Source: an uncultured Thermoleophilia bacterium
Lineage (GTDB): Bacteria; Actinomycetota; Thermoleophilia; UBA2241
Assembly: GCA_963702475.1 (NCBI GenBank)
Contig: CAVPCT010000006.1
Location: 289,405 to 353,404, forward strand
Direction: 5' to 3'
Length of the DNA stretch: 64,000 bases
The notes beneath the pieces are model-generated. The model was not told where the DNA came from. It did not search any database and saw only the letters and a program-made list of their open reading frames with translations. Shown piece by piece: positions 37,972 through 55,370 of this stretch. The translations under genes and the position numbers were made by a program. How positions within the stretch are numbered: the first letter of the stretch is position 1; every line of letters begins with the position of its first letter.

Positions 37972-38715
37972 TCAGCTCCGCGGCCGGCCCACCGTGGTCA
38001 TGTAGACGACCGGCTCCTCGTCGGGGTCAACGCCGAGCAGGACCGCCGCCTCCTCGTCGTAGAAGGCGGCGACCTGGCAGGTACCGAGCCCCAGGGCGAC
38101 GGCCGCCAGGGCCACGTTCTGGGCGATGTGGCCGGCGTCCAGCAGTACGTAGCGCACGAAGCGCTGCCCGTACTTCCAGCGCGAGCGCTCGAGCACGGCC
38201 GTCCACAGGAAGACCGCGTCGGCGTCAGCCGCGATGCGCTGGTCGAGGGCGGCGCGCGCCAGGGGCAGGCGCACGTCGCCCGGTCGCACCTGCTCGAGGG
38301 CGCGCTCAAGGACGGCGTGGTGGTACACGCCGGGCTCCAGTCCCGTCACGCGGTGCGCTGCGACGTAGTGCTCGATGGGGAAGAGGCCGCCGGCCGACGG
38401 CGCCGTGCGAAAGGCGAAGCCGAGCTGCTGCGCGGTGACCCCGGCGGCCGCCCAGAGCAGCGCGGAGAGCTCCCCGAGGTCGAGTGACGGCGGCGCGTAG
38501 TCGCGCACGCTGCGCCGCCGCCCGAGCACCTCGAACAGGTCCTGGTGCGCCGCGCCCGGCGGCGCAAGGCGCGGCTCGGGCAGCTGGACGCGCGGCGCGT
38601 CGGGGTATGTCTTGAACCAGGCCGGCTGGCGGCTCCAGTCCATACGCCCGCCCACCAGCCGCTCGCGGGTGTGCCTCGTCTCCTTCAGGTACTGCTCGGC
38701 GATGCCGTCGTCCAC
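37972..38715 (-). CDS. SagB/ThcOx-type nitroreductase-fold dehydrogenase
   Basis: YLKETRHT...RRSVRDY...LSALLWAAAGVT...RTAPSAGGLFPIE...YVLLDAGHIAQNV. GTG 38715 follows AAGGAGA. Confidence 0.75.
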   Translation of the reverse strand: MDDGIAEQYLKETRHTRERLVGGRMDWSRQPAWFKTYPDAPRVQLPEPRLAPPGAAHQDLFEVLGRRRSVRDYAPPSLDLGELSALLWAAAGVTAQQLGFAFRTAPSAGGLFPIEHYVAAHRVTGLEPGVYHHAVLERALEQVRPGDVRLPLARAALDQRIAADADAVFLWTAVLERSRWKYGQRFVRYVLLDAGHIAQNVALAAVALGLGTCQVAAFYDEEAAVLLGVDPDEEPVVYMTTVGRPRS

Positions 38716-38778
38716 GTCAGTCTCCTTCCGCGCGGCCGGTCGGGCGCGGCGCATGCCGCGCCCGACCGGCCGCGGCCC

Positions 38779-41411: not shown

Positions 41412-42833
41412 CTACAGCTCCGGGGCCACGGCGCGCAGCTCGTCCCACACGAGCCGCACGTGCTCGCGCTCGGTGTGCAGCGCGCCGATGGACACGCGGA
41501 GCATCTGCCGGCCCTTCAGCAGCGAGGGCGTGAGGTAGGCGCGGCCGGCCCGGTTCACACGGTCGGCGACCGCCAGGTTGTGGGCCGTGAGGGCGTCCTC
41601 GTCGCCGGCCAGGGCCGGTGGCTCGTGCCGCACGCACACGGTCTGGAGCGGCGCCGGCGCGAGGCGTTCCCACTCCGGCGCTGCGTCGACCTGCTCCGCC
41701 AGCCAGGCGGCATTCTCCACGTCGCGCCGCACGCGCGCCTGCAGGCCCTCCACGCCCTGGTCGCGAAGCAGGAACCACAGCTTGAGCGAGCGGAAGCGGC
41801 GGCCCAGCGGGATGCCCCAGTCGCGCAGGTTGCGCACGAGACCGTCCTGGGCCGTGCGCAGGTAGCTCGGGTCGGTGCTCATCACGCGCACCAGGTGCTC
41901 CGGGTCGCGCACGTAGTACGCGGAGAGGTCGAAGACGGTGCCGAGCCATTTGTGCGGGTTGAAGACGACGGAGTCGGCCGCCTCCACGCCGTCCCACATC
42001 CAGCGGTACTCGGGGCAGATCATGGCGGTGCCGGCGAGGGCCGCGTCCACGTGAAGCCACAGGCCGTGGCGCGCCGCCAGCTCGGCCACGCCGCGCACGG
42101 GGTCCAGGGCGGTGGTCGCGGTGGTGCCGACGGCGGCCACCACGGCGCAGGGCCGCCGCCCGGCAGCGAGGTCCTCCTCGACGGCCGCCTCGAGCAGGTC
42201 GAGGCGCAGGGCATGCTCGTCGTCGGTGCCGATGAGGCGCAGGTGCTCTGCGCCGAAGCCGGCCAGCAGCGCCGCCTTGGGGATCGAGCTGTGCGCCTGG
42301 TCGGAGGCGTAGACGACGAGCGGGGTGGCCTCACCCTGCAGGCCGCCGCGGTTCTGGCAGAAGCCACTGGTGCGCTCACGGGCGCAGAGCAGCGCGGTGA
42401 ACGTGGCCGTGCTGGCCGTGTCCTGGATGACGCCGGTGAACGTGTCCGGCAGCCCGACCATGCCGCGCAGCCACTCCATGACGACGTCCTCGAGCTCGGT
42501 GGCGGCGGGGCTCGTCTGCCAGCTCATGCCCTGCACGCCGAGCCCGGACGAGACCAGGTCGGCGAGCACGGTGGAGAGCTCGGCGTTGGACGGGAAGTAG
42601 GCGAAGAAGGCGGGGTGGTTCCAGTGCGTGATACCGGGGAGGACGATGTCGTCGAGGTCGACGGTGATGGAGTCGAGGCCGGCCGGCCGCGCCGGAGGCT
42701 CGGCCGGCAGCTTGGCCGCCACCTCGCCGGGCTGTACGCGGCTCATGACCGGCAGGTCGGCGATGTGTCCGCGGTAGTCGGCGATCCAGTCGACCAGCTC
42801 GTGGCCGAGGCGGCGGAAGTCGGCAGGGTCCAT
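41412..42833 (-). CDS. Aromatic-L-amino-acid decarboxylase-like group II PLP decarboxylase
   Basis: HWNHPAFFAYFPSN, HVDAALAGTAMICPE and SVVFNPHKWLGTVFDLSAYYVRD. Confidence 0.9.
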   Translation of the reverse strand: MDPADFRRLGHELVDWIADYRGHIADLPVMSRVQPGEVAAKLPAEPPARPAGLDSITVDLDDIVLPGITHWNHPAFFAYFPSNAELSTVLADLVSSGLGVQGMSWQTSPAATELEDVVMEWLRGMVGLPDTFTGVIQDTASTATFTALLCARERTSGFCQNRGGLQGEATPLVVYASDQAHSSIPKAALLAGFGAEHLRLIGTDDEHALRLDLLEAAVEEDLAAGRRPCAVVAAVGTTATTALDPVRGVAELAARHGLWLHVDAALAGTAMICPEYRWMWDGVEAADSVVFNPHKWLGTVFDLSAYYVRDPEHLVRVMSTDPSYLRTAQDGLVRNLRDWGIPLGRRFRSLKLWFLLRDQGVEGLQARVRRDVENAAWLAEQVDAAPEWERLAPAPLQTVCVRHEPPALAGDEDALTAHNLAVADRVNRAGRAYLTPSLLKGRQMLRVSIGALHTEREHVRLVWDELRAVAPEL

Positions 42834-42954: not shown

Positions 42955-43617
42955 CTACCTGCGCTCGGCAACGATCACCTCTGAGGCCAACACCAGGTCG
43001 GTGACGATGAGTCGCGCCCGGACCGTCCACAGCTCGGGCGTGAGCAGGGGAACCAGTGTGACCGGGCGGCAGCCGCCCATGAGTGCGGGGTCCAGGCTCC
43101 ACACCGCGCGCCAGGCGCGCGTGAGGCCGCGAGCGATTGCTGTCCGGCCCGGGGTGAGGCTCGCCAGAGCGAGCAAGCCCCCGGGACGGAGCACGCGGTG
43201 TACCTCCGCGAGCAGCCCCTCGCAGTCGTCCGGGCTGAGCAGGTCGAGGACGTAGGTGCCGACGAAGCGATCGCACGAGCCGTCGTCCACGGGCAGGTCC
43301 ATCGAGCCGTCGGATCGCTCCACGCGCGCCCGGTCGCCCCACGGGGCGACGGCGGCGCGCGCCAGATCCACCATGCGGGGACTCACGTCCAGACCCAGGT
43401 AGCTCGCCCCGGCCGGGAGGCGCTCGGCCAGCACGCGGGCCGCCAGGCGGCCCGTGCCGCAGCCGAGTTCCAGCACGGCATCGGCGCGCTCGAACGCCGT
43501 ACGCTCCACGAGCGCGTCCAGCGCGCGCCGCTCGCTCAGCGGCCGCGTGTCCTGCCAGCGGCCGATGCGGTCGTAGATCCTCTGCGCCTGCGCGTGACTG
43601 ACGTAGCGCTCCGGCAA
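42955..43617 (-). CDS. Class I SAM-dependent methyltransferase
   Basis: VLELGCGTGRLA motif I and LRPGGLLAL. The only in-frame start is a TTG at 43617. Confidence 0.78.
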   Translation of the reverse strand: MPERYVSHAQAQRIYDRIGRWQDTRPLSERRALDALVERTAFERADAVLELGCGTGRLAARVLAERLPAGASYLGLDVSPRMVDLARAAVAPWGDRARVERSDGSMDLPVDDGSCDRFVGTYVLDLLSPDDCEGLLAEVHRVLRPGGLLALASLTPGRTAIARGLTRAWRAVWSLDPALMGGCRPVTLVPLLTPELWTVRARLIVTDLVLASEVIVAERR

Positions 43618-43830
43618 CCCGCCTCCTCCGTCATGGCCACCCTGAACGTCGCATCGAGCATCCTGTCAATCGAGATGACACCGTATTCAATGATACGCGC
43701 AACATCCCACACATCCGCGCACCTAGTGACACCCGTCACCCACTGAGACAGAATCGACCGCATCCGCGGCGCTGTGTCGCGAGGTAGGGGGGCCTCCCCC
43801 GGGGGGCCGGGTGCGAGACAGGAGGAGCTC

Positions 43831-45504
43831 ATGGCAAGACGTCTCCGTATTCTTCTCATGGTCGTGCTGTGCGTGGGGGTGGTGCTGGCCCTCGCGGCGC
43901 CGGCGATGGCCAAACGGCCCACGCACTTCATGATCGTCGTCATCGACCAGATGCAGCCCGGCTACGCGCAGCAGTTCGACATGGCGAACGTGCTCATGCT
44001 GCAGAAGAAAGGCGTCAACTTCCCCAACGCGTACGTGGGCCACATGGCGTCGGAGACGGTGATAGCCCACAACGTCATGGTCAGCGGGCAGTTCCCCAAG
44101 CACATGGGCTGGTCGGACGAGGCCTTCCGCGACGTCAACAACATCATCGGCTACGGGACCGACGCCATCGTCACCAGCGGTGACCTGGGCTACGCCGACT
44201 ACGAGAAGCTCATCGCCGAGTGGGACTACAAGAAGCTCGGCGACTACCTGCACGAGAAGTTCCCCGGCACGATCGTCGCCAATGTGGGCCAGAAGGGCTA
44301 CCAGGTCGAGTCGATGGCGGCGTCGAGCTCGGACTACTACGTCCGCTACGGCAGCAAGAAGAAGACGTCCGACCTGGCCGACCCGAGCGTCGTGCCGTGG
44401 ACGGGCACCTACCGCGGCCCGTCCGGCAAGCTTCCCGACTACATCAAGAGCGACAACCGCTTCCTCGTGAGCGTCGGGAACCCTTCGGACTCGCTCGAGA
44501 CCACCAAGACCGCGCCGGCCTGGATCTACCCGGAGGACGGTCGCTACGTGGTCGACAGCTATCAAGGCCATCAGGGCGGCGACAACTGGGTCGCCGATGC
44601 CACCCTCAAGATCATGGACAACGAGGAGTGGTCCGGCCTGTGGGTGACCTTCAGTTCCATGGACAAGGTCGGCCACATGTGGGGCACCGGCGAGATCGAC
44701 ACCGTCGCCGAGTACGGCTGGGATCCGAGCTCGCTGTTCGCCCAGATCCACATGCCGTGGGTGGCCAAGAACGCCGACGACCAGCTCGGCCGTCTGCTAG
44801 CCAAGCTCAAGGAGAAGGGCATCGACGACGAGACCCTCATCGTGGTGACGGCCGACCACGCCGCCACCTACGGCAAGGGCGAGGGCTACAGGGGCGTGAA
44901 CACGTACGACGGCGGTAACCTGTTCAACTGGTACGCCGGCTCCTGGTTCCCGGGCTACGGCTCCGACCCCAAGGTCCCCAACACCAGCCCCGGCTCGCCG
45001 AACCTCAAGCCGCTCATGGATACGGGCAACGTGGCCTTCAGCTACCAGTCCACCGCCATCGAGACCTGGCTCAAGGACTGGAGCATGGCCAAGAAGCTGG
45101 CGGCCGCGGACGTGATGGAGGATCTGCCGGGCGTCATAGCCACTTACGTGAAGAACGGCGACCGCTACAAGCGGTACTCGGTGGACGTGGCCATGACCAA
45201 GTCCGAGAGCAACTGGTGGACCGCCCACGGTCAGGAGCTGGTCAACACCATGTGTTTCGAGGGCTCGGGTGACGTGGTCGGGTTGCTCGCCGACAAGAAC
45301 AGCTACGGCGCCTTCGGCGACCACGGCGGCGCGCAGATGGAGGTGCAGCGCATCCCGATGGCCTGGTACATGCCGGGCATCAAGCACGCCGTGAACAAGG
45401 CCGGGATCCGGCTGGTGGACCTCATGCCGACGGCGATGAAGGCGCTCGGCATCGCCGCCACCGACCCGATGGACGGCAAGGCGTACGACCTGAAGATCAA
45501 GTGA
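43831..45504 (+). CDS. Secreted alkaline-phosphatase-superfamily phosphoesterase (NPP/phosphodiesterase-like)
   Basis: Signal peptide MARRLRILLMVVLCVGVVLALAAPAMA. Metal and nucleophile blocks VVIDQMQPGY, MASETVIAHN, SSMDKVGHMWG and VVTADHA. The ATG follows AGGAGGAG. Confidence 0.8.
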   Translation: MARRLRILLMVVLCVGVVLALAAPAMAKRPTHFMIVVIDQMQPGYAQQFDMANVLMLQKKGVNFPNAYVGHMASETVIAHNVMVSGQFPKHMGWSDEAFRDVNNIIGYGTDAIVTSGDLGYADYEKLIAEWDYKKLGDYLHEKFPGTIVANVGQKGYQVESMAASSSDYYVRYGSKKKTSDLADPSVVPWTGTYRGPSGKLPDYIKSDNRFLVSVGNPSDSLETTKTAPAWIYPEDGRYVVDSYQGHQGGDNWVADATLKIMDNEEWSGLWVTFSSMDKVGHMWGTGEIDTVAEYGWDPSSLFAQIHMPWVAKNADDQLGRLLAKLKEKGIDDETLIVVTADHAATYGKGEGYRGVNTYDGGNLFNWYAGSWFPGYGSDPKVPNTSPGSPNLKPLMDTGNVAFSYQSTAIETWLKDWSMAKKLAAADVMEDLPGVIATYVKNGDRYKRYSVDVAMTKSESNWWTAHGQELVNTMCFEGSGDVVGLLADKNSYGAFGDHGGAQMEVQRIPMAWYMPGIKHAVNKAGIRLVDLMPTAMKALGIAATDPMDGKAYDLKIK

Positions 45505-45569: not shown

Positions 45570-45696
45570 CTCTCTGTGAGCCGGACGTGATCCGCGCTCG
45601 CCCCGCGGTCGCGTCCGGCCGGTTGCGGCTCTCCTCGCCCGCCCTCAGGATGGAGCTCCGGCCGTGGGGCCGGACATCGGGAGCCGGGAGGCACGC

Positions 45697-46824
45697 GTGC
45701 GCATCGAACCGTTCTTCGTCGAGCAGTGGATGAACGCCCACGAGACCACGGCCACGTGGAACATCGCCGAGACGTGTGTGCACTCGCTGACCCTCGAGGC
45801 GCTGCTCGAGCTCAGTGGCGACGCCGACGGCGTGCTGCGTCGCCTGCGCGAGACCAGGCTCGGGTACGGGGACATCGTCGGCTCGCCGCGGCTGCGCGCC
45901 GCGATAGCGGCGCTGTACGGCGAGCACATCGGTCCTGAGAACGTCCTCACGGCCAACGGGGCCATCGGCGCCAACTTCCTGGCGCTCTACGCGCTGGCGG
46001 AGCCGGGTACGTCGGTGGTCAGCGTACAACCCACGTACCAGCAGCTCTACTCAGTACCCGAAGCGCTCGGGGCGGAGGTGCACGCAGTGCGCCTGCGAGA
46101 AGCGGACGGCTACATGCCCGACATCGACGCGATCCGCGCAGCGTGCGACGCTCGTACGCGGCTCGTCATCCTGAACAACCCCAACAATCCGACCGGCGCC
46201 CTCATCGACGAGCCGTCGCTTAGCGAGATCGTCGAGGTGGCGCGAGAACATGACGCCTGGCTGTTCTGCGACGAGGTCTACCGGCGTCTGGAGCACGAGC
46301 CGGGGACGACGGCTCCGTCGGTGGCCGACCTGTACGAGAAGGGCGTCAGCAGCGGCAGCATGAGCAAGAGCTACTCGCTGGCCGGCCTGCGCACGGGCTG
46401 GGTGGCCGGCCCGCAGGAGCTCATCGAGCGCTGTCTCGAGGTGCGCGACTACACCACGATCAGCGCGGGGGTGCTGGACGACGCTCTGGCGGCCGTCGCT
46501 CTCGAGCACATCGACGCGGTCCTCGCGCGCAGCTTGGCGATCGTGCGCGGCAACCTGGCGGTCGTGGATGCGTGGGTGGCAAGCGAGCCGCGGCTGCGCT
46601 ACGTGCGGCCGCGGGCCGGCACCACGGCGCTCGTGAGGTACGAGCACGACATCCCGTCGGTCACGTTCTGCCAGGAGCTGTTCGACCTCAACGGCGCCTT
46701 CGTGGTGCCCGGCGCCGCCTTCGGCGAGGAGCACTCGTTCAGGCTGGGCTACGCCTGCGCCCGCGAGACGCTCGAGGGCGGTCTGGCGGCGGTGTCGGCG
46801 TACCTGCGGAGGCAGGAGGGCTGA
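45697..46824 (+). CDS. Class I/II PLP-dependent aminotransferase
   Basis: NNPNNPTGA and GSMSKSYSLAGLRTGW (PLP lysine). GTG 45697 follows GGGAGG; GTG 45664 is an alternative start. Confidence 0.88.
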   Translation: MRIEPFFVEQWMNAHETTATWNIAETCVHSLTLEALLELSGDADGVLRRLRETRLGYGDIVGSPRLRAAIAALYGEHIGPENVLTANGAIGANFLALYALAEPGTSVVSVQPTYQQLYSVPEALGAEVHAVRLREADGYMPDIDAIRAACDARTRLVILNNPNNPTGALIDEPSLSEIVEVAREHDAWLFCDEVYRRLEHEPGTTAPSVADLYEKGVSSGSMSKSYSLAGLRTGWVAGPQELIERCLEVRDYTTISAGVLDDALAAVALEHIDAVLARSLAIVRGNLAVVDAWVASEPRLRYVRPRAGTTALVRYEHDIPSVTFCQELFDLNGAFVVPGAAFGEEHSFRLGYACARETLEGGLAAVSAYLRRQEG

Positions 46825-47064: not shown

Positions 47065-47475
47065 ATGGATCCCGGGACTCAACCGCGTGGGAACGGCGCC
47101 GACACCAACGGATGTGGCGGGTCGGGTGCGGCGAGCGACGACTCGGCGCCGCGCAGGACCTGGCTCGCCGCGGAGCGTACGTATCTCGCCTGGGTCCGCA
47201 CGGCGCTCGGGGCGCTCGGCATGGCCCTCGCGGTAGGGCGCCTGCTGCCCGCGCTGGCCGACGTCTCTCACGTGGCCTTCGGCCTGTTGGGCGCCGCGTA
47301 CGGGGTCTTCGGCGTGCTCCTGCTCCTGTTCGCCGCGCACCGCGCCCGCGGCGTGCGGGGCGCGCTCGCCGCGCAGGAACAGCTGCCCGAGCACGGCTGG
47401 ACCATGACCGCCGTCACCGTCTTCGGTCTGGTCCTCGCCGTGCTCACCATCGCGCTCATCGTCGTGGAGATTTGA
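47065..47475 (+). CDS. DUF202 (YidH-like) membrane protein
   Basis: RTWLAAERTYLAWVRTALGALGMALAVGRLL followed by two further TM helices. Confidence 0.7.
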   Translation: MDPGTQPRGNGADTNGCGGSGAASDDSAPRRTWLAAERTYLAWVRTALGALGMALAVGRLLPALADVSHVAFGLLGAAYGVFGVLLLLFAAHRARGVRGALAAQEQLPEHGWTMTAVTVFGLVLAVLTIALIVVEI

Positions 47476-47518
47476 GCCTGAAGGCCGGCGACCGCCGTCG
47501 GCAGGGGGAGGGGATCGC

Positions 47519-49783
47519 GTGAAGCGGTACGCTGCGTCGCGGGAGCAGGTCGTCGCGCTGTGTCGCGGTCTGCTTGAGCGCGGCTATCTCAAGGCCACGG
47601 AGGGCAACGTCTCGGTGCGCGTGCCCGGCGAGGACGCCTTCGCCATCACGCCGTCCAACTACGACTACGCCATCATGCACGCGGAGGACATCTGCGTCCT
47701 CGACCACGACCTCAAACGGCTCGAGGGCGCCATGAAGGCGTCCATCGAGGCCGGTATGCACGCCGCGGTGTACGCGCGCCGCGACGACGTGAACGCCATC
47801 ATCCACACGCACCAGCCCTACGCCAGCGCGCTCGCCCTTGTGCGGCGCCCCATCCCCGCGCTGTTCGACGAGCAGGTGCGCTTCCTGGGGCGCTCCGTGG
47901 AGATCGTGGACTACGCGCCGTCGGGCACATCGTTCCTGCGCAAGAACGTGGAGAAGGCCGTGGGGAGCAACGCCAACGCGTACATCCTCGCCAACCACGG
48001 CGTGCTGGTGCTGGGGGGCGACCCGGAGCGCGCCGCCTTCAATATGGCGTTGCTCGAGAAGGTCGCCCTGGACTACCTCCTGGCGCTGATGACGGACGAG
48101 AAGGTGCGCAAGGTGCCGGCGCCGATCCGCGAGGTGGCGTTCGGCAGGCTGCGCAAGGACGAGAAGAGGCTCAGGAAGCAGCTCGAGGCCGCCCGGGAGG
48201 CGGCCGCTCAGGAGGAGGGTGCGGCGGCAGACGAAGCGGCGGCGCGGGCGGAGACGGCCGCGCCTGAGGCCGTCCCGGCCGGGAAGGAGGCCGGCGCTGC
48301 GGGGCCGGGCGAAGCCCGGCTGACCGGCGCCCAGCTCGCCGGCTACGCCATCGGGGCGTACCCGGACGTCGAGGACGTCTACGCGCGCCTCGACGCGCTC
48401 GTGCGGCAGCCCATCCGCCCGCTCAGGCGTGACGCCATGGCGGAGGCGCTCGACCACTACGAGACGAAGTGCCGCCGCAGCCGGGAGCTCACCGACGAAG
48501 CGGGTGAGCTCATCCCCGGCGGCGTCCAGCACAACCTCGCCTTCAACTACCCCTTCCCGCTCGCCATCGAGCGGGCTGAGGGCGCCCACCTCTGGGATGT
48601 CGACGGCAACCGCTACATCGACTTCCTCCAGGCCGGCGGGCCGACCGTGCTCGGCAGCAACTACCGGCCGCTCCGGGAGAAGGTCGCCGAGGTCGTGGCC
48701 GCCTCCGGCCCGGTCACCGGGCTGTTCCACGAGTACGAGCTCAAGTTGGCCGAGCTCGTGCACCGCCTGGTGCCGGCTTGCGAGCAGTTCCGCATGCTCG
48801 GCTCCGGCACCGAGAGCGTGATGGCCGCCGTGCGCGCCGCGCGCGCGTTCACCGGCAACAAGTGGGTCGTCAAGGTCGGCGGCGCCTACCACGGCTGGAG
48901 CGACCAGATGGTGTACGGCCTGCACGTGCCCGGCACTTGGCGGTTCGAGGCCAAGGGCATACCGTTCGGGGCGACGGCGCTGACGCGTGAGGTCTTTCCG
49001 AACGACCTCAAAGCGCTGCGCCGCAAGCTCCGGGAGAACAAGGCCCTGGGAGGGACCGCAGCCGTCATCGTGGAGCCGGTCGGGCCCGAGAGTGGCACGC
49101 GCCCGGTGCCGTTCGGCTTCAACGCTGCCGTGCGCAAGCTGTGCGACGAGTTCGGCGCGCTCCTCATCTTCGACGAGGTCGTCACCGGCTTCCGCCTCGG
49201 CCTGGGCGGGGCGCAGGGCTACTTCGGCGTGCGCCCCGATCTCACGATCTTCGGCAAGTGCATCACGGGTGGGTATCCCATGGCCGGCGGCGTGGGCGGG
49301 CGGCGCGACGTGATGGCGAGCTTCGCCTCCGGCATCGGCGGCAGGAGCGGCGAGTGCGCCTACGTGGGCGGCACCCTGAGCGCCAATCCGCTGAGCTGCG
49401 CCGCCGGCTACTTCGCCATCACCGAGATGGAGCGCACCAACGCGCCGGCGCTCGCAGGCGTCGCCGGCGACCGGCTCACGGCCGGGCTCCAGGACATCAT
49501 CCGGCGCCACCGGCTGCCGTTCGTCGCGTACAACCAGGGGTCCATCGTCCACCTCGAGACGTCGGGCGTGATGCTGCTCGACCTCAGGCACCCGCTGCGC
49601 TTCGCGAAGGAGATGAAGCCGCGTAAGCACATGCTCGAGGAGATGGGCGCGGCCTACGCGGCCGCCGGCATCGTCACGCTGGCCGGGTCGCGCATGTACA
49701 CGTCGATGGCCGACACCGACGAGGTGATCGACGACGCGCTCGAGCGCTTCGAGCAGGTGCTCTCACGGGTCGAGGGCGTCTGA
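47519..49783 (+). CDS. Fusion protein: class II aldolase/adducin-like domain plus class III aminotransferase (glutamate-1-semialdehyde 2,1-aminomutase-like) domain
   Basis: N-terminal part: ATEGNVSVRVPG, IIHTHQPYASALA and ANHGVLVLGG. An Ala/Glu-rich linker follows. C-terminal part: AEGAHLWDVDGNRYIDF and IFDEVVTGFRLGLGGAQGYFGVRPDLTIFGKCITGGYPMAGGVGGRRDVM. Confidence 0.85.
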   Translation: MKRYAASREQVVALCRGLLERGYLKATEGNVSVRVPGEDAFAITPSNYDYAIMHAEDICVLDHDLKRLEGAMKASIEAGMHAAVYARRDDVNAIIHTHQPYASALALVRRPIPALFDEQVRFLGRSVEIVDYAPSGTSFLRKNVEKAVGSNANAYILANHGVLVLGGDPERAAFNMALLEKVALDYLLALMTDEKVRKVPAPIREVAFGRLRKDEKRLRKQLEAAREAAAQEEGAAADEAAARAETAAPEAVPAGKEAGAAGPGEARLTGAQLAGYAIGAYPDVEDVYARLDALVRQPIRPLRRDAMAEALDHYETKCRRSRELTDEAGELIPGGVQHNLAFNYPFPLAIERAEGAHLWDVDGNRYIDFLQAGGPTVLGSNYRPLREKVAEVVAASGPVTGLFHEYELKLAELVHRLVPACEQFRMLGSGTESVMAAVRAARAFTGNKWVVKVGGAYHGWSDQMVYGLHVPGTWRFEAKGIPFGATALTREVFPNDLKALRRKLRENKALGGTAAVIVEPVGPESGTRPVPFGFNAAVRKLCDEFGALLIFDEVVTGFRLGLGGAQGYFGVRPDLTIFGKCITGGYPMAGGVGGRRDVMASFASGIGGRSGECAYVGGTLSANPLSCAAGYFAITEMERTNAPALAGVAGDRLTAGLQDIIRRHRLPFVAYNQGSIVHLETSGVMLLDLRHPLRFAKEMKPRKHMLEEMGAAYAAAGIVTLAGSRMYTSMADTDEVIDDALERFEQVLSRVEGV

Positions 49784-49837
49784 GGCCGAGGGCCGGCCGG
49801 GCCGGATTCGCCCGCCGGCCCGCTTTCGACCGCCGGC

Positions 49838-50347
49838 TCACCACCGCTCGTACTTGACGAGCTCGTCGAGGGGCCGGCGGCTGGTCTGCGCCCGGTCCTT
49901 GTCGGGGTAGCCGAGCGGCGTGAAGGCCAGCGGCTGCACGTCGGCGGGCAGCCCGAGCACCTCGCGCGCCGCGTCCGGGTCGAAGGCGGCGATCCAGCAG
50001 GTCCCCAGGCCGAGCGCCGTCGCCGCCAGCACGAGGTGGTCCATGGCGATGGTGGCATCCACCTCGTCGTAGGGCTTGTCGTCCATGCGCCGCCAGGCCT
50101 CACCGGGCACGGCCACGAAGGCGAGCACCAGCGGCGCCTGCGTGAACCAGCGGCGCCCGTAGACACGCCCGAGCTCTTCCTCCCGTCCCGCGGTGTGTGC
50201 CACGACGATGCGAAACGGCTGCCGGTTGGCCGCGGTCGGCGCCTGCCGCGCGGCCTCCAGTACCTTTGTCAGGTCCTCGTCGCTCACCGGGTCGGGCTTG
50301 TAGCCCCGCACGCTGTAGCGGTCTCTGATGGCCGTGAACACGTCCAC
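49838..50347 (-). CDS. Nitroreductase family protein
   Basis: IRDRYSVRGYKPDPV...ARQAPTAANRQPFRIVV...LGLGTCWIAAF. Confidence 0.85.
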   Translation of the reverse strand: MDVFTAIRDRYSVRGYKPDPVSDEDLTKVLEAARQAPTAANRQPFRIVVAHTAGREEELGRVYGRRWFTQAPLVLAFVAVPGEAWRRMDDKPYDEVDATIAMDHLVLAATALGLGTCWIAAFDPDAAREVLGLPADVQPLAFTPLGYPDKDRAQTSRRPLDELVKYERW

Positions 50348-54155: not shown

Positions 54156-55370
54156 ATGAGGCGCGCCTGCGTCCCGGGCGAAGGCATGAGCCGCGCCCTG
54201 GTGCTCCTCTTCGCCGTCGCCACGGGCCAGGCTGTGGCCAGCAACTACCTGGCGCAGCCGCTCCTCGACGTCATCAGCCGGGAGTTCCACATCTCGAGCG
54301 GCGTGGCCGGTCTCGTCGTGACCTCTGCCCAGGTGGGCTACGCCCTCGGGCTCATCCTCCTGCTGCCGCTGGGCGACCTGCTGGAGCGAAGGCGGCTCAT
54401 CACGGTGCTGGCGGCGATCACGGCGACAGGCCTGGCCGCCGCCGCCTTCTCCCCCTCGGTCGCCGTGTTCCTCCCTGCGGTCGGCATTGTCGGCTTCACG
54501 TCGGTGATGGCGCAGATCCTGGTGCCCTTCGCGGCCACTCTCTCGGATCCCGCTTCGCGCGGCAGAGTGGTGGGCACCGTCATGAGCGGCCTGCTGCTGG
54601 GCATCCTCCTGGCGCGGACCGCCTCCGGCCTCATCGCGCAGGTCGCCGGCTGGCGTGGCGTCTACGTCATCTTCGCGGTGCTCATGGTGGCGCAGATGGT
54701 GACCCTGTGGACGGTGCTGCCCACCTATCGGGCCGACGTGAAGCTCGGCTACGGCCGTCTGCTGGGTTCGGTCGTCGTCCTCGCCCGGCAGGAGCCGGTG
54801 CTGCGCCTGCGTGCCTTGTTCGGCGTGGTCTCGTTCGCCTCGTTCAGCGTGCTCTGGACGGTGCTCGCGTTCCTCCTCTCCGGGCCGCCCTACAACTACA
54901 GCGAGGGCGTCATCGGCCTGTTCGGTCTGGTCGGAGCCGCAGGCGCCGCCACCGCCAGCGTGGTCGGGCGCTTCACGGACAGGGGCTGGGCGCGGGCGCT
55001 CACCGGCATCTCAGCGCTGCTTCTCCTGCTCGGCGTCGTGCTGCTGTGGCGAGGAGCCGTCTCGTTGCCGGCGCTGGTGGCCGGCGTGCTGGTGCTCGAC
55101 GTCGGCTCCACCGGCCTGCACCTCAGCAATCAGAGCGAGATCTTCCGGATCAGGCCGGAGTCGCGCAGCCGGGTCAACGCCTTCTACATGACGAGTTGCT
55201 TCGTCGGGGCGGCCGGCGGCTCCGCCGTGGCCGCCCTCGTGTACGAGCGCTGGGCCTGGGACGGCGTCTGCGTGCTGGGCGCGGCCATCGCCCTGTTCGG
55301 CCTGGCGCTGTGGGCCTTCGGCCCGCGCCACTCGGCCGTCGCAGACGAGGCCGCCGCGCACGCCCGCTGA
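54156..55370 (+). CDS. Major facilitator superfamily transporter
   Basis: Twelve-TM-like hydrophobic pattern with LLLPLGDLLERRRL (motif A-like). ATG 54186 is an alternative start. Confidence 0.8.
   Translation: MRRACVPGEGMSRALVLLFAVATGQAVASNYLAQPLLDVISREFHISSGVAGLVVTSAQVGYALGLILLLPLGDLLERRRLITVLAAITATGLAAAAFSPSVAVFLPAVGIVGFTSVMAQILVPFAATLSDPASRGRVVGTVMSGLLLGILLARTASGLIAQVAGWRGVYVIFAVLMVAQMVTLWTVLPTYRADVKLGYGRLLGSVVVLARQEPVLRLRALFGVVSFASFSVLWTVLAFLLSGPPYNYSEGVIGLFGLVGAAGAATASVVGRFTDRGWARALTGISALLLLLGVVLLWRGAVSLPALVAGVLVLDVGSTGLHLSNQSEIFRIRPESRSRVNAFYMTSCFVGAAGGSAVAALVYERWAWDGVCVLGAAIALFGLALWAFGPRHSAVADEAAAHAR

What the first reader, a model, noticed from the sequence alone, without database searches (positions are those of the whole stretch)
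47519..49783. Single 754-aa polypeptide fusing a class II aldolase/adducin-type domain to a glutamate-1-semialdehyde-aminomutase-like PLP domain
The N-terminal roughly 200 aa carry the class II aldolase/epimerase/dehydratase hallmarks: EGNVSVR, the metal-binding HTH in IIHTHQPYA, and ANHGVLVLG. After a roughly 60-aa Ala/Glu-rich linker comes a full class III aminotransferase domain very close to HemL, including the FGK PLP-lysine context. Joining a carbon-carbon lyase/dehydratase-type domain to an aminomutase/transaminase suggests substrate channelling. One example would be a sugar-phosphate or keto-acid intermediate that is then aminated. I know of no characterised enzyme with this architecture, but I cannot search from here.
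Basis: partly seen in the sequence, partly recalled or inferred. Interest (0 to 1): 0.6.

Follow-up and report, generated by a model that had tools for sequence, protein, structure and literature searches.

The report
Fused aldolase-aminotransferase of an uncharacterised pathway
One real gene joins a zinc-type aldolase to a PLP aminotransferase that is not the haem enzyme HemL; across several phyla the two parts travel with a special sugar-kinase-type enzyme that also partners sphingosine-phosphate lyases, which points to an undescribed route for breaking down sphingosine-like amino-alcohols.

Summary
Window 47519-49783(+) is one 754-aa ORF with a class II aldolase domain, an Ala/Glu-rich linker and a GSA-aminomutase-like class III aminotransferase. 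It is not an assembly artefact: over 120 protein clusters and 27 of 80 species-level loci have the same fusion. It is not HemL: a canonical hemL lies elsewhere in the genome, and HemL's SPVR arginine is deleted here.

In other phyla the two halves are adjacent separate genes in an operon: TetR | aldolase | aminotransferase | MFS | FGGY kinase. The fusion arose at least three times.

The partner kinases form a clade apart from the E. coli sugar kinases tested. That clade also holds kinases sitting beside sphingosine-1-phosphate lyase (SPL) genes. In this genome the only such kinase and the only cassette-type MFS sit in an SPL-FGGY-MFS operon on another contig. Two fused loci elsewhere carry an SPL gene within 8 kb. 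In Dehalococcoidia a RuBisCO-like protein takes the aldolase's place.

Best reading (about 50%): the kinase phosphorylates a 2-amino-1,3,4-triol-type amino-alcohol, the aminotransferase turns it into a ketose-1-phosphate analogue, and the aldolase cleaves that to DHAP plus an aldehyde. The substrate is unproven.

No paper in the held library describes this. The scan has noted the same cassette before on other genomes.

The parts
47504..47513 (+). Shine-Dalgarno-like purine run GGGGGAGGGG, 5 nt before the GTG start
   Evidence: Read directly from the sequence.
47519..49783 (+). Whole 754-aa ORF: fused class II aldolase and class III aminotransferase (P0001)
   Evidence: GC3 is 0.93. More than 120 full-length fused relatives exist.
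47519..48103 (+). Class II aldolase-type domain (residues 1-195). The residues aligned with FucA's metal ligands are E77 (47747-47749), H96 (47804-47806), H98 (47810-47812) and H160 (47996-47998). The residues aligned with FucA's phosphate-site residues (role from memory) are G29-N30, T44 and S75.
   Evidence: Pfam PF00596, 163 bits. The best solved match is L-fuculose-1-phosphate aldolase 4c25, E 1e-25. The residues are invariant in 73 of 73 fused and split relatives. The numbering was checked against E. coli FucA E73/H92/H94/H155. Model pLDDT is 85-94.
48110..48169 (+). Conserved helix that ends the aldolase half (residues about 198-217, VPxPIREVAFxxLRKDEK). It is kept in split-form aldolases as well.
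   Evidence: Nearly invariant positions P200, I203, R204, E205, A207, F208, L211 and K216 in alignments A1 and A2. It is modelled as a helix. Its role is unknown.
48170..48343 (+). Ala/Glu/Pro-rich linker (residues about 218-275), variable in length and sequence
   Evidence: No consensus in alignment A1. pLDDT is below 50 for residues 234-279. Unfused relatives start aligning at residue about 274.
48344..48550 (+). N-terminal extension of the aminotransferase half (residues about 276-344). It includes the family signature PGGVQHNLAFN (Q337-N343 = 48527-48547), which replaces HemL's GGVNSPVRA.
   Evidence: Stand-alone relatives of 480-495 aa carry the extension. The motif is conserved in at least 95% of 77 sequences. 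Compared with this genome's own HemL, a 4-residue deletion removes the Arg.
48551..49759 (+). Class III (fold type I) aminotransferase domain (residues 345-747). The PLP lysine K580 is at 49256-49258; D552 lies in FDEVVTGFR.
   Evidence: Pfam PF00202, 169.5 bits. The best solved match is GSA aminomutase 4e77, E 6e-68. K580 and D552 are conserved in at least 95% of 77 sequences and invariant in alignments A1 and A3.
47456..49630 (-). 724-aa antisense ORF: a GC-rich shadow of the real gene, not a gene
   Evidence: It is listed and fails the GC3 test. The same shadow appears in high-GC relatives.

Best explanation
The gene encodes a bifunctional enzyme of a conserved but uncharacterised catabolic module. 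The module consists of an MFS transporter, an FGGY-family kinase, a class III aminotransferase and a class II aldolase, often under a TetR repressor.

Proposed mechanism:
1. The kinase phosphorylates the C1 hydroxyl of an imported 2-amino-1,3,4-triol-type amino-alcohol. This could be a phytosphingosine-like long-chain base or another 2-amino-2-deoxy-polyol.
2. The C-terminal aminotransferase domain moves the C2 amino group onto a keto-acid acceptor. The product is a 1-phospho-2-oxo-3,4-diol, which is a ketose-1-phosphate analogue.
3. The N-terminal metal-dependent aldolase domain cleaves the C3-C4 bond to give dihydroxyacetone phosphate plus an aldehyde.

The fusion would therefore join two consecutive steps.

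In this genome the fusion has lost its own adjacent kinase and transporter. The only kinase and MFS of the family lie in an operon with a sphingosine-1-phosphate-type lyase on contig C3. The two C-C cleaving enzymes would then be alternative outlets for the same phosphorylated amino-alcohol pool.

Shown: the domain architecture, intact catalytic residues, that it is not HemL, conservation, repeated fusion, the gene associations and the kinase phylogeny.

Inferred: the substrate class, the order of steps and the products.
For: Real and conserved:
- Two domains.
- More than 120 fused clusters of 69-100% identity.
- 27 fused and 49 adjacent-split loci among 80 species genomes.
- Catalytic residues invariant or nearly so.
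- At least three independent fusions.

Not HemL:
- Scores are below the curated cut-offs.
- A true hemL scores 576 bits elsewhere in the genome.
- The SPVR arginine is deleted.

Partners:
- An FGGY kinase occurs in 70 of 80 loci, TetR in 33 and MFS in 33. No isomerase or other enzyme recurs.
- The split operon is FGGY-ALD-AT-ALD-MFS in Leptonema and TetR-fusion-FGGY in a second fused lineage.

Kinase identity:
- All cassette-linked kinases form one clade with SPL-linked kinases. The clade excludes E. coli XylB, LyxK, GlpK, FucK, RhaB and LsrK, and also the XylB-like kinases beside ordinary class II aldolases.
- SPL-linked kinases nest inside a 99%-supported clade of 56.
- SPL-FGGY adjacency was seen in G000 and in 4 of 6 other genomes with a close SPL. 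It is 3 of 5 without the unpublished G088.

Physical links:
- The fused loci L050 and L052 carry an SPL gene within 8 kb.
- This genome's only cassette-type MFS (63% identity) follows SPL-FGGY on C3.
- 3 of 6 genomes with the aminotransferase also have a close SPL, against 4 of the 195 without it.

Order of steps:
- An SPL-type partner implies that the kinase product is a 1-phospho-2-amino-3-hydroxy compound. From established class II aldolase chemistry, such an aldolase cannot cleave it until C2 is a ketone.
- The same aminotransferase orthogroup (75% identity) pairs with a RuBisCO-like protein in place of the aldolase in Dehalococcoidia. From established knowledge of MtnB and MtnW, characterised members of both families act on 1-phospho-2-keto sugars.
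- The aminotransferase half has five Arg and three His that are family-invariant and absent from HemL. This fits an anionic substrate.
Against: - No biochemical datum exists for any member. The substrate class rests on guilt by association.
- The sampled genomes are related, so the co-occurrence counts overstate independence and are small (6 and 7 genomes).
- SPL lies in only 2 of 80 cassette loci. A ceramidase was seen beside the cassette once and was not found in this genome.
- The aldehyde dehydrogenase that accompanies some cassettes matches the GabD2-type 'succinic semialdehyde dehydrogenase' equivalog, not fatty-aldehyde dehydrogenases. This does not support a long-chain aldehyde product.
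- Aldol cleavage needs a C4 hydroxyl, so ordinary sphingosine or sphinganine could not be substrates.
- FucA's catalytic Tyr113 is not conserved; it aligns with the invariant D117-E118. The domain might therefore catalyse a related reaction, such as epimerisation or dehydration, and not cleavage.
- In this genome the fusion has no adjacent kinase, and the genome is 93.8% complete.
Confidence: 0.5

Rival explanations
1. Sugar route with a terminal amination. The FGGY kinase phosphorylates a ketose at C1. The aldolase domain cleaves it to DHAP plus an aldehyde. The fused aminotransferase converts that reactive aldehyde at once into a primary amine, for example glycolaldehyde to ethanolamine or lactaldehyde to 1-amino-2-propanol.
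For: - FGGY kinase plus class II aldolase is the textbook fucose/rhamnose logic.
- The best solved match of the N-half is FucA, and the best NCBIfam match is ribulose-1-phosphate aldolase.
- GSA-aminomutase-like transaminases that aminate aldehydes are known, for example GntE, which is the third-best NCBIfam hit.
- A fusion would shield a toxic aldehyde.
Against: - The kinases are not in the FucK, RhaB or XylB groups. They share a clade with SPL-linked kinases.
- Ordinary aldolase plus XylB-like kinase modules exist separately in the same genomes.
- There is no isomerase or sugar-type regulator or transporter; the cassette has TetR and MFS_1 instead.
- The aminotransferase keeps its kinase partner where the aldolase is absent or replaced by a RuBisCO-like protein. 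That is hard to explain if it only mops up an aldolase product.
Confidence: 0.2
2. Biosynthetic direction. The aldolase condenses DHAP with an aldehyde, and the aminotransferase aminates C2 to make a phosphorylated 2-amino-polyol. This would be a sphingoid-like or aminopolyol natural product, and the MFS would export it.
For: - Class II aldolases and transaminases are reversible (established knowledge).
- TetR plus MFS pairs are common in export and resistance modules.
- Actinoplanes and relatives are rich in secondary metabolism.
Against: - A kinase is the most constant partner (70 of 80 loci), and a biosynthetic route starting from DHAP has no use for one.
- No phosphatase, tailoring enzyme or other biosynthetic gene recurs.
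- The cassette is widespread in fermentative Anaerolineae and in a gut Oscillibacter relative.
- The link to the catabolic SPL enzyme points to breakdown.
Confidence: 0.1
3. The N-terminal domain is not an aldolase in function. It is a dehydratase, epimerase or decarboxylase of the same fold (like MtnB, AraD or OtnC) that acts on the keto-phosphate made by the aminotransferase.
For: - FucA's Tyr113 is replaced by an invariant Asp-Glu pair.
- All aldolase and epimerase equivalog scores are below cut-off.
- The domain can be replaced by a RuBisCO-like protein, a family of enolases and isomerases.
Against: - The residues aligned with FucA's metal and phosphate sites are conserved.
- No downstream enzyme recurs that could process an uncleaved product.
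- Cleavage to DHAP is the simplest way for a three-enzyme module to reach central metabolism (inference).
Confidence: 0.15
4. The protein is a second HemL (glutamate-1-semialdehyde aminomutase) fused to an unrelated aldolase, or the fusion is an assembly artefact.
For: The best NCBIfam and PDB matches of the C-half are HemL. Some automatic annotations call relatives 'glutamate-1-semialdehyde 2,1-aminomutase'.
Against: - Scores are far below the HemL cut-offs.
- The arginine of HemL's SPVR motif is deleted. Its role in binding the substrate carboxylate is from memory.
- A true hemL is present elsewhere.
- The fused ORF recurs in more than 120 independent clusters.
- The laid contigs show no indels.
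Confidence: 0.02

Closest known systems
L-fucose and L-rhamnose catabolism (FucK/FucA, RhaB/RhaD of E. coli)
   Same: An FGGY-family kinase is paired with a metal-dependent class II aldolase that yields DHAP plus an aldehyde. The residues aligned with FucA's metal ligands and phosphate site are conserved.
   Different: - A class III aminotransferase is fused or adjacent.
- The kinase lies in a different clade from FucK, RhaB and XylB.
- There is no isomerase.
- Regulation and transport use TetR and MFS_1, not sugar-type proteins.
- FucA's Tyr113 is not conserved.
- Scores are below the curated cut-offs.
Glutamate-1-semialdehyde 2,1-aminomutase (HemL)
   Same: The fold, the PLP lysine, the Asp and the FDEV.TGFR core are shared. 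HemL is the closest solved structure family (4e77, E 6e-68).
   Different: - The score is 268 bits against a 527 cut-off.
- The SPVR arginine is deleted and replaced by the invariant QHNLAFN motif.
- There is an N-terminal extension of about 60 aa.
- A genuine hemL exists elsewhere in the genome.
- The gene context is not a haem context.
Long-chain-base degradation by sphingosine kinase plus sphingosine-1-phosphate lyase (eukaryotes; bacterial SPLs such as StSPL 3MAD and B. pseudomallei 5K1R)
   Same: The logic is 'phosphorylate the amino-alcohol, then break a C-C bond next to the head group'. The cassette kinases share a clade with kinases adjacent to SPL genes. SPL lies in two fused loci. 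This genome's single kinase and MFS are in the SPL operon.
   Different: - Cleavage would be by transamination plus a metal aldolase at C3-C4, giving DHAP. SPL instead makes a PLP-dependent C2-C3 cleavage that gives phosphoethanolamine.
- The kinase is FGGY-type, unrelated to eukaryotic sphingosine kinases.
- Neither the kinase nor the fusion has been tested biochemically.
Methionine-salvage enzymes MtnB (class II aldolase-fold dehydratase) and MtnW (RuBisCO-like enolase)
   Same: These are the same two protein families that alternate beside this aminotransferase (aldolase-type here, RuBisCO-like in L083). From established knowledge, both act on 1-phospho-2-keto pentose derivatives. That is the kind of product the aminotransferase is proposed to make.
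   Different: There is no MtnK, MtnA or other salvage gene in the cassette. The kinase is FGGY-type. The aminotransferase is GSA-aminomutase-like and not a KMTB transaminase.
Guanitoxin GntG/GntE pair (retro-aldolase followed by a GSA-aminomutase-like transaminase)
   Same: A C-C lyase is coupled to a HemL-like transaminase in one pathway. GntE is the third-best NCBIfam match of the C-half (235 bits).
   Different: The GntE score is far below its 525 cut-off. From memory, GntG is a PLP enzyme and not a class II aldolase. The order of steps proposed here is the reverse.

Membership tests
HemL / glutamate-1-semialdehyde 2,1-aminomutase (TIGR00713, NF000818) | Score at or above the curated family cut-off | tested here: not met
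   TIGR00713 scores 268 bits against a 527.3 cut-off, and NF000818 scores 287.7 against 398. The genome's real hemL scores 576.
HemL / glutamate-1-semialdehyde 2,1-aminomutase (TIGR00713, NF000818) | N-terminal GGVNSPVRAF motif, whose Arg binds the substrate carboxylate (role from memory) | tested here: not met
   The motif reads GGVQHNL----AF here, with a 4-residue deletion relative to this genome's own HemL and to 4e77. The replacement motif is conserved in at least 95% of 77 relatives.
HemL / glutamate-1-semialdehyde 2,1-aminomutase (TIGR00713, NF000818) | It is the genome's provider of 5-aminolevulinate | tested here: not met
   A separate canonical hemL lies at G000:C5:812271-813530.
Class III (fold type I) PLP aminotransferases, PF00202 | Domain score above the gathering threshold, a Schiff-base lysine, and the Asp that binds the pyridine nitrogen | tested here: met
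   The score is 169.5 bits against 30.5. K580 and D552 are conserved in at least 95% of 77 relatives and invariant in alignments A1 and A3, and both align with those of HemL.
Class II aldolase/adducin superfamily, PF00596 | Domain score above the threshold, and the Glu plus three His that bind the metal | tested here: met
   The score is 163 bits against 22.2. E77, H96, H98 and H160 align with E. coli FucA E73, H92, H94 and H155 and are invariant in 73 of 73 sequences.
L-fuculose-1-phosphate aldolase (FucA, NF005302) and ribulose-1-phosphate aldolase (NF053831) | Score above the equivalog cut-off | tested here: not met
   The scores are 113.8 against 264, and 118.8 against 300.
L-fuculose-1-phosphate aldolase (FucA, NF005302) and ribulose-1-phosphate aldolase (NF053831) | Catalytic Tyr113 of the neighbouring subunit (role from memory) | tested here: not met
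   In the alignment to FucA 4c25, this position falls on the invariant D117-E118 of the FDEQVR motif.
L-fuculose-1-phosphate aldolase (FucA, NF005302) and ribulose-1-phosphate aldolase (NF053831) | Partner kinase of the FucK or RhaB type, plus a sugar isomerase | tested here: not met
   The partner kinases lie in a separate clade. No isomerase recurs.
FGGY kinase - class II aldolase - GSA-AM-like aminotransferase cassette (uncharacterised; defined here and in earlier notes of this scan) | Aldolase with intact metal site directly followed by, or fused to, the aminotransferase carrying the PGGVQHNLAFN motif | tested here: met
   The window's gene sits in the 100%-supported actinobacterial fused clade.
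FGGY kinase - class II aldolase - GSA-AM-like aminotransferase cassette (uncharacterised; defined here and in earlier notes of this scan) | Cassette-clade FGGY kinase (with MFS and TetR) in the same locus | tested here: not met
   There is no FGGY, cassette MFS or TetR in the window. The close relative L100 has deacetylase-MTHFR-CGS-FGGY-MFS between the fusion and DUF459. The genome's only clade member is on C3, next to SPL.
Sphingoid-base degradation systems (kinase plus SPL) | Acts on a long-chain base phosphate | not testable with these tools
   There is only associative evidence. The ALDH type does not support a fatty aldehyde product.

The most novel reading that the evidence does not exclude
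The fusion is the core of an undescribed, SPL-independent route for degrading phytosphingosine-type long-chain bases, or other 2-amino-1,3,4-triols. An FGGY-fold kinase acts as a new kind of long-chain-base kinase. The aminotransferase domain converts the base 1-phosphate into a lipid 'ketose 1-phosphate'. The aldolase domain then splits it into DHAP and a fatty aldehyde. Carbon and nitrogen from plant and fungal sphingolipids would thereby enter central metabolism in soil and sediment bacteria.
Probability: 0.3. Interest if true: 0.8.

Novelty: new variant of a known kind. Interest (0 to 1): 0.62.

Why it matters
Both domains belong to textbook enzyme families, but their combination defines a widespread module with no assigned function. 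It occurs in Actinomycetota, Chloroflexota, Pseudomonadota, Spirochaetota, Bdellovibrionota and gut Firmicutes relatives. Automatic annotation mislabels it as HemL or as a sugar epimerase.

If the proposed chemistry holds, it would add three things:
- a new catabolic logic: phosphorylate, transaminate, then aldol-cleave an amino-alcohol;
- a new substrate class for FGGY 'carbohydrate' kinases;
- a natural partner pathway for the bacterial sphingosine-1-phosphate lyases, whose physiological role in free-living bacteria is unclear.

Cultured carriers (Actinoplanes species, Phytohabitans aurantiacus, Aquipseudomonas alcaligenes NBRC 14159, Leptonema illini) make this directly testable. The enzyme pair could also interest biocatalysis, since it links amino-polyols with DHAP aldol adducts.

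Tried and rejected
- Complex prediction of a split aldolase (alignment A2) with its aminotransferase (alignment A3) gave no verdict (score 0.00). It says nothing either way about binding.
- The full-length structure model is only moderate (mean pLDDT 67, pTM 0.49). The aldolase half is good and the aminotransferase half patchy, because the alignment was shallow. I ran no fold search on it.
- The idea that each genome has a single kinase shared by SPL and the cassette failed in general. G132, G185 and G198 have several FGGY paralogues. It does hold for this genome.
- Ceramidase association is weak. One ceramidase flanks the Leptonema cassette. None was found in this genome, and only G066 among the aminotransferase-positive genomes has ceramidase-like hits.
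- The window's own neighbours are conserved only in the 5-6 closest loci and are not part of the module. They are a DOPA-decarboxylase-like PLP enzyme, a methyltransferase, a class I/II aminotransferase, DUF202, a nitroreductase, DUF459, PGA_cap and an MFS at 54156-55370.
- My first comparison with the genome's HemL used a shadow reading frame and is void. One search replaces it.
- The aldolase-half tree is dominated by the long branches of the E. coli references and does not place the family reliably among FucA, RhaD and AraD.
- No RNA holder is listed among the public runs, so nothing can be said about expression.
- No single short contig bridges 48274-48346.
- Literature searches found no description of the cassette, of an FGGY-type sphingoid kinase, or of the fusion. 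The GliR paper that mentions both FGGY and sphingosine is unrelated.
Full report
**1. The observation**

Window 47519-49783(+) is a single 754-aa ORF. It starts at a GTG that lies 5 nt after a GGGGGAGGGG run. Its third-position GC of 0.93 is like that of the other real genes of this roughly 71% GC window. The 724-aa ORF on the other strand is a GC shadow.

Pfam finds Aldolase_II at residues 9-183 (E 9e-48) and Aminotran_3 at residues 345-747 (E 1e-49).

The Ala/Glu-rich stretch is real, variable among relatives and modelled as disordered (pLDDT below 50 for residues 234-279). Unfused relatives align from residue about 274. The true linker is therefore about residues 218-275, and residues 276-344 are an N-terminal extension that belongs to the aminotransferase.

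**2. It is a genuine, conserved fusion**

A search of 5.8 billion proteins returned more than 120 clusters of 69-100% identity. All are 732-813 aa long and all carry both Pfam domains; those that are named come from Thermoleophilia.

A scan of one genome per prokaryote species returned 80 loci. I checked each for an intervening stop codon.
- 27 are truly fused: Thermoleophilia and other actinomycete MAGs, cultured Actinoplanes species, Phytohabitans, and one deltaproteobacterial MAG.
- 49 have an aldolase gene of about 228 aa directly followed by an aminotransferase gene of about 488 aa: all Chloroflexota, Aquipseudomonas alcaligenes, Duganella, Bacteriovoracaceae and an alphaproteobacterium.
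- 4 have the aminotransferase match only.
- Two further loci classed as split (L082 and L048) look like frameshifted fused genes.

On a tree of the aminotransferase halves, the fused state needs at least three origins:
- an actinobacterial clade of 27 with 100% support, which includes this gene and is nested among split Chloroflexota forms;
- the deltaproteobacterial L052;
- the divergent P0124 lineage.

The aldolase halves recover the same actinobacterial clade, so the halves have evolved together.

Contigs of four public runs show no indel inside the ORF. Pieces from three runs run from the aldolase domain into the linker.

**3. Both halves look active, and the C-half is not HemL**

Aldolase half:
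- E77, H96, H98 and H160 align with the FucA metal ligands E73, H92, H94 and H155 (numbering checked on the E. coli fucA translation).
- These four, and the residues aligned with FucA's phosphate site (G29-N30, T44, S75), are invariant in 73 of 73 fused and split sequences.

Aminotransferase half:
- The PLP lysine K580, D552 and the FDEV.TGFR core are conserved in at least 95% of 77 sequences and shared with HemL.

Against a HemL identity:
- NCBIfam scores are far below every curated cut-off: hemL 268 against 527, GntE 235 against 525, FucA 114 against 264, and ribulose-1-phosphate aldolase 119 against 300.
- The genome has a canonical hemL elsewhere (576 bits).
- HemL's GGVNSPVRA motif is replaced by the conserved GGVQHNL----A, a 4-residue deletion that removes the arginine. 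From memory, that arginine binds the substrate carboxylate.
- Residues that are family-invariant but absent from HemL include five Arg and three His.

FucA's Tyr113 is also not conserved. It aligns with an invariant Asp-Glu pair.

**4. Context**

The window's own neighbours travel with the gene only in the 5-6 closest genomes. Clustering of all ORFs in the 80 loci found one dominant partner, an FGGY-family kinase of about 528 aa, in 70 of 80 loci. Next came a divergent TetR (33 loci) and an MFS_1 transporter (33 loci).

The archetype is TetR(-) | aldolase | aminotransferase | MFS | FGGY. No isomerase or other enzyme recurs. Two further arrangements were seen:
- Leptonema illini has FGGY | aldolase | aminotransferase | a second, His-less aldolase paralogue | MFS, next to a ceramidase gene.
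- The P0124 lineage has TetR | fusion | FGGY with overlapping stop and start codons.

The kinases score below the XylB and LsrK cut-offs.

In the window itself the kinase is missing. The close relative L100 has deacetylase, MTHFR, a Cys/Met-type PLP enzyme, FGGY, MFS and GDSL between the fusion and a DUF459 gene. Here only a nitroreductase gene on the opposite strand separates the two.

**5. The link to sphingosine-phosphate-lyase systems**

The best match in this genome to the cassette kinase (41% identity) lies on contig C3. It overlaps by 14 nt the end of a gene whose product matches the solved sphingosine-1-phosphate lyases of Burkholderia pseudomallei (E 6e-129) and Symbiobacterium thermophilum (E 2e-127). 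Directly after the kinase comes the genome's only orthologue (63% identity) of the cassette MFS.

In a 201-genome sample of the phylum:
- Six other genomes have a close SPL. Four of these have an FGGY kinase beside it, or three of five if the unpublished genome G088 is left out.
- Those kinases are 46-48% identical to the cassette kinase.

In a tree of 83 FGGY kinases:
- All cassette-linked, SPL-linked and aminotransferase-only-linked kinases form one clade (SH-aLRT 82).
- That clade excludes E. coli XylB, LyxK, GlpK, FucK, RhaB and LsrK. It also excludes the XylB-like kinases next to ordinary stand-alone class II aldolases of the same genomes.
- The SPL-linked kinases nest within a 99%-supported clade of 56 that is otherwise cassette-linked.

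Two fused loci contain an SPL gene within 8 kb. L050 reads fusion | FGGY | MFS | ALDH | FGGY | SPL, and its SPL is 77% identical to this genome's. L052 is the other. By my rough estimate, chance would give well under 0.1 such loci in 80.

Three of six sampled genomes with the aminotransferase also have a close SPL, against 4 of the 195 without it. These numbers are small and the genomes are related.

In Dehalococcoidia the same aminotransferase orthogroup (75% identity) sits in FGGY | RuBisCO-like protein | aminotransferase | STAS | CoA-transferase.

**6. Mechanism proposed**

An SPL partner implies that kinases of this clade make a 1-phospho-2-amino-3-hydroxy compound. A class II aldolase needs a 1-phospho-2-keto-3,4-diol (established chemistry of the family), so it can act only after the C2 amine has become a ketone. 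That conversion is what a transaminase does.

This gives the order kinase, then aminotransferase (C-terminal domain), then aldolase (N-terminal domain). The products are DHAP, an aldehyde and an amino acid. The fusion would join consecutive steps, which fits its repeated origin.

The alternation of aldolase-fold and RuBisCO-like partners fits too. From established knowledge of MtnB and MtnW, both families handle 1-phospho-2-keto sugars.

The substrate must carry a C4 hydroxyl. Candidates are phytosphingosine-type bases, which are abundant in plant and fungal lipids, or hydrophilic 2-amino-2-deoxy-polyols. TetR and MFS_1 in place of sugar-type regulators, the one ceramidase neighbour and the SPL link lean towards the lipid. 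The GabD2-type ALDH found in some cassettes does not.

My estimates are about 0.5 for the general mechanism and about 0.3 for a sphingoid substrate. All of this is inference from gene association; no member has been assayed.

**7. Known or new**

Sources give relatives only generic names, or the wrong name 'glutamate-1-semialdehyde aminomutase'. No curated equivalog claims either half. Seven literature searches found no description (one search checked one false lead).

Earlier notes of this scan, which are AI notes on other genomes, describe three related things: the same cassette, FGGY-SPL pairs in many phyla, and a kinase-aminotransferase-RuBisCO-like operon. I reached the SPL link independently, before reading those notes. 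I re-tested the cassette, the adjacency, the kinase grouping, the His-less paralogue and the RuBisCO-like variant on my own data. This is therefore not the first sighting in the scan.

I rate it a new variant of a known kind: familiar enzyme folds in an undescribed pathway.

**8. Claims that rest on the unpublished genome G088**

Only one of the four SPL-FGGY adjacencies rests on it, along with one of the four SPL-positive, aminotransferase-negative genomes. The trees do not use it.

Noticed in passing
G000 contig C3:794105-798429 (locus L101:5106-9430), outside the window: An operon of a sphingosine-1-phosphate-lyase homologue (E 6e-129 to 5k1r), an FGGY kinase that overlaps it by 14 nt, and an MFS transporter. 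A further class III aminotransferase (L101:10134-11477) and a metallophosphoesterase lie downstream.
   Followed up: yes
L083:5069-11116 and L077 (Dehalococcoidia MAGs): A variant operon: FGGY kinase | RuBisCO-like protein | the same aminotransferase orthogroup (75% identical) | STAS protein | acetyl-CoA hydrolase/transferase | rhodanese. The RuBisCO-like protein stands where the class II aldolase sits elsewhere.
   Followed up: partly
L097:9491-10183 (Leptonema illini); probably also after the aminotransferase in L055, L057 and L058 (Aquipseudomonas): A second aldolase-fold paralogue follows the aminotransferase. It lacks all three metal-binding histidines (FSRQDW in place of HTHQP, VSGGLL in place of ANHGVL). 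It keeps the FDEQVRxLGRSV motif and the C-terminal KVPxxVRxIAxxxLxKDxK helix of the window's aldolase half. It may be a non-catalytic subunit.
   Followed up: partly
window 49784-50327, compared with L100:10245-17856: Synteny breaks just after the fusion. Relatives have about 7.5 kb here (polysaccharide deacetylase, MTHFR, Cys/Met PLP enzyme, FGGY, MFS, GDSL lipase) before DUF459. The window has only a nitroreductase gene on the opposite strand (49838-50347), so the kinase and transporter block has been lost or replaced.
   Followed up: partly
window 41412-42833 (-): A PLP decarboxylase very close to a solved DOPA/aromatic amino-acid decarboxylase (7xin, E 8e-191). A SAM methyltransferase (42955-43617, -) lies beside it. 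This pair is conserved upstream of the fusion in the closest relatives only.
   Followed up: partly
L082:7989-10302 and L048:7875-10221: In two MAGs the fused gene appears as two overlapping frames (overlaps of 871 and 79 nt). These are most likely frameshift errors of the assemblies or recent pseudogenes.
   Followed up: no
L138 (G185:C53) and L139 (G198:C23): More distant relatives of the aminotransferase (44-46% identity) sit divergently next to an FGGY kinase of the same broad clade, with no aldolase nearby. The aminotransferase-kinase pair looks like the oldest core of the system.
   Followed up: partly
window 43774-45504 (+), 45664-46824 (+), 47065-47475 (+): Three co-directional genes precede the fusion: an alkaline-phosphatase-superfamily (phosphodiesterase/sulfatase) gene, a class I/II aminotransferase and a DUF202 membrane protein. 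The last two are conserved in the 6 closest loci. Any link to the fusion is unknown.
   Followed up: no
window 37972-38778 (-) and 49838-50347 (-): Two nitroreductase-family genes lie in the window, one of them directly downstream of the fusion and convergent with it.
   Followed up: no
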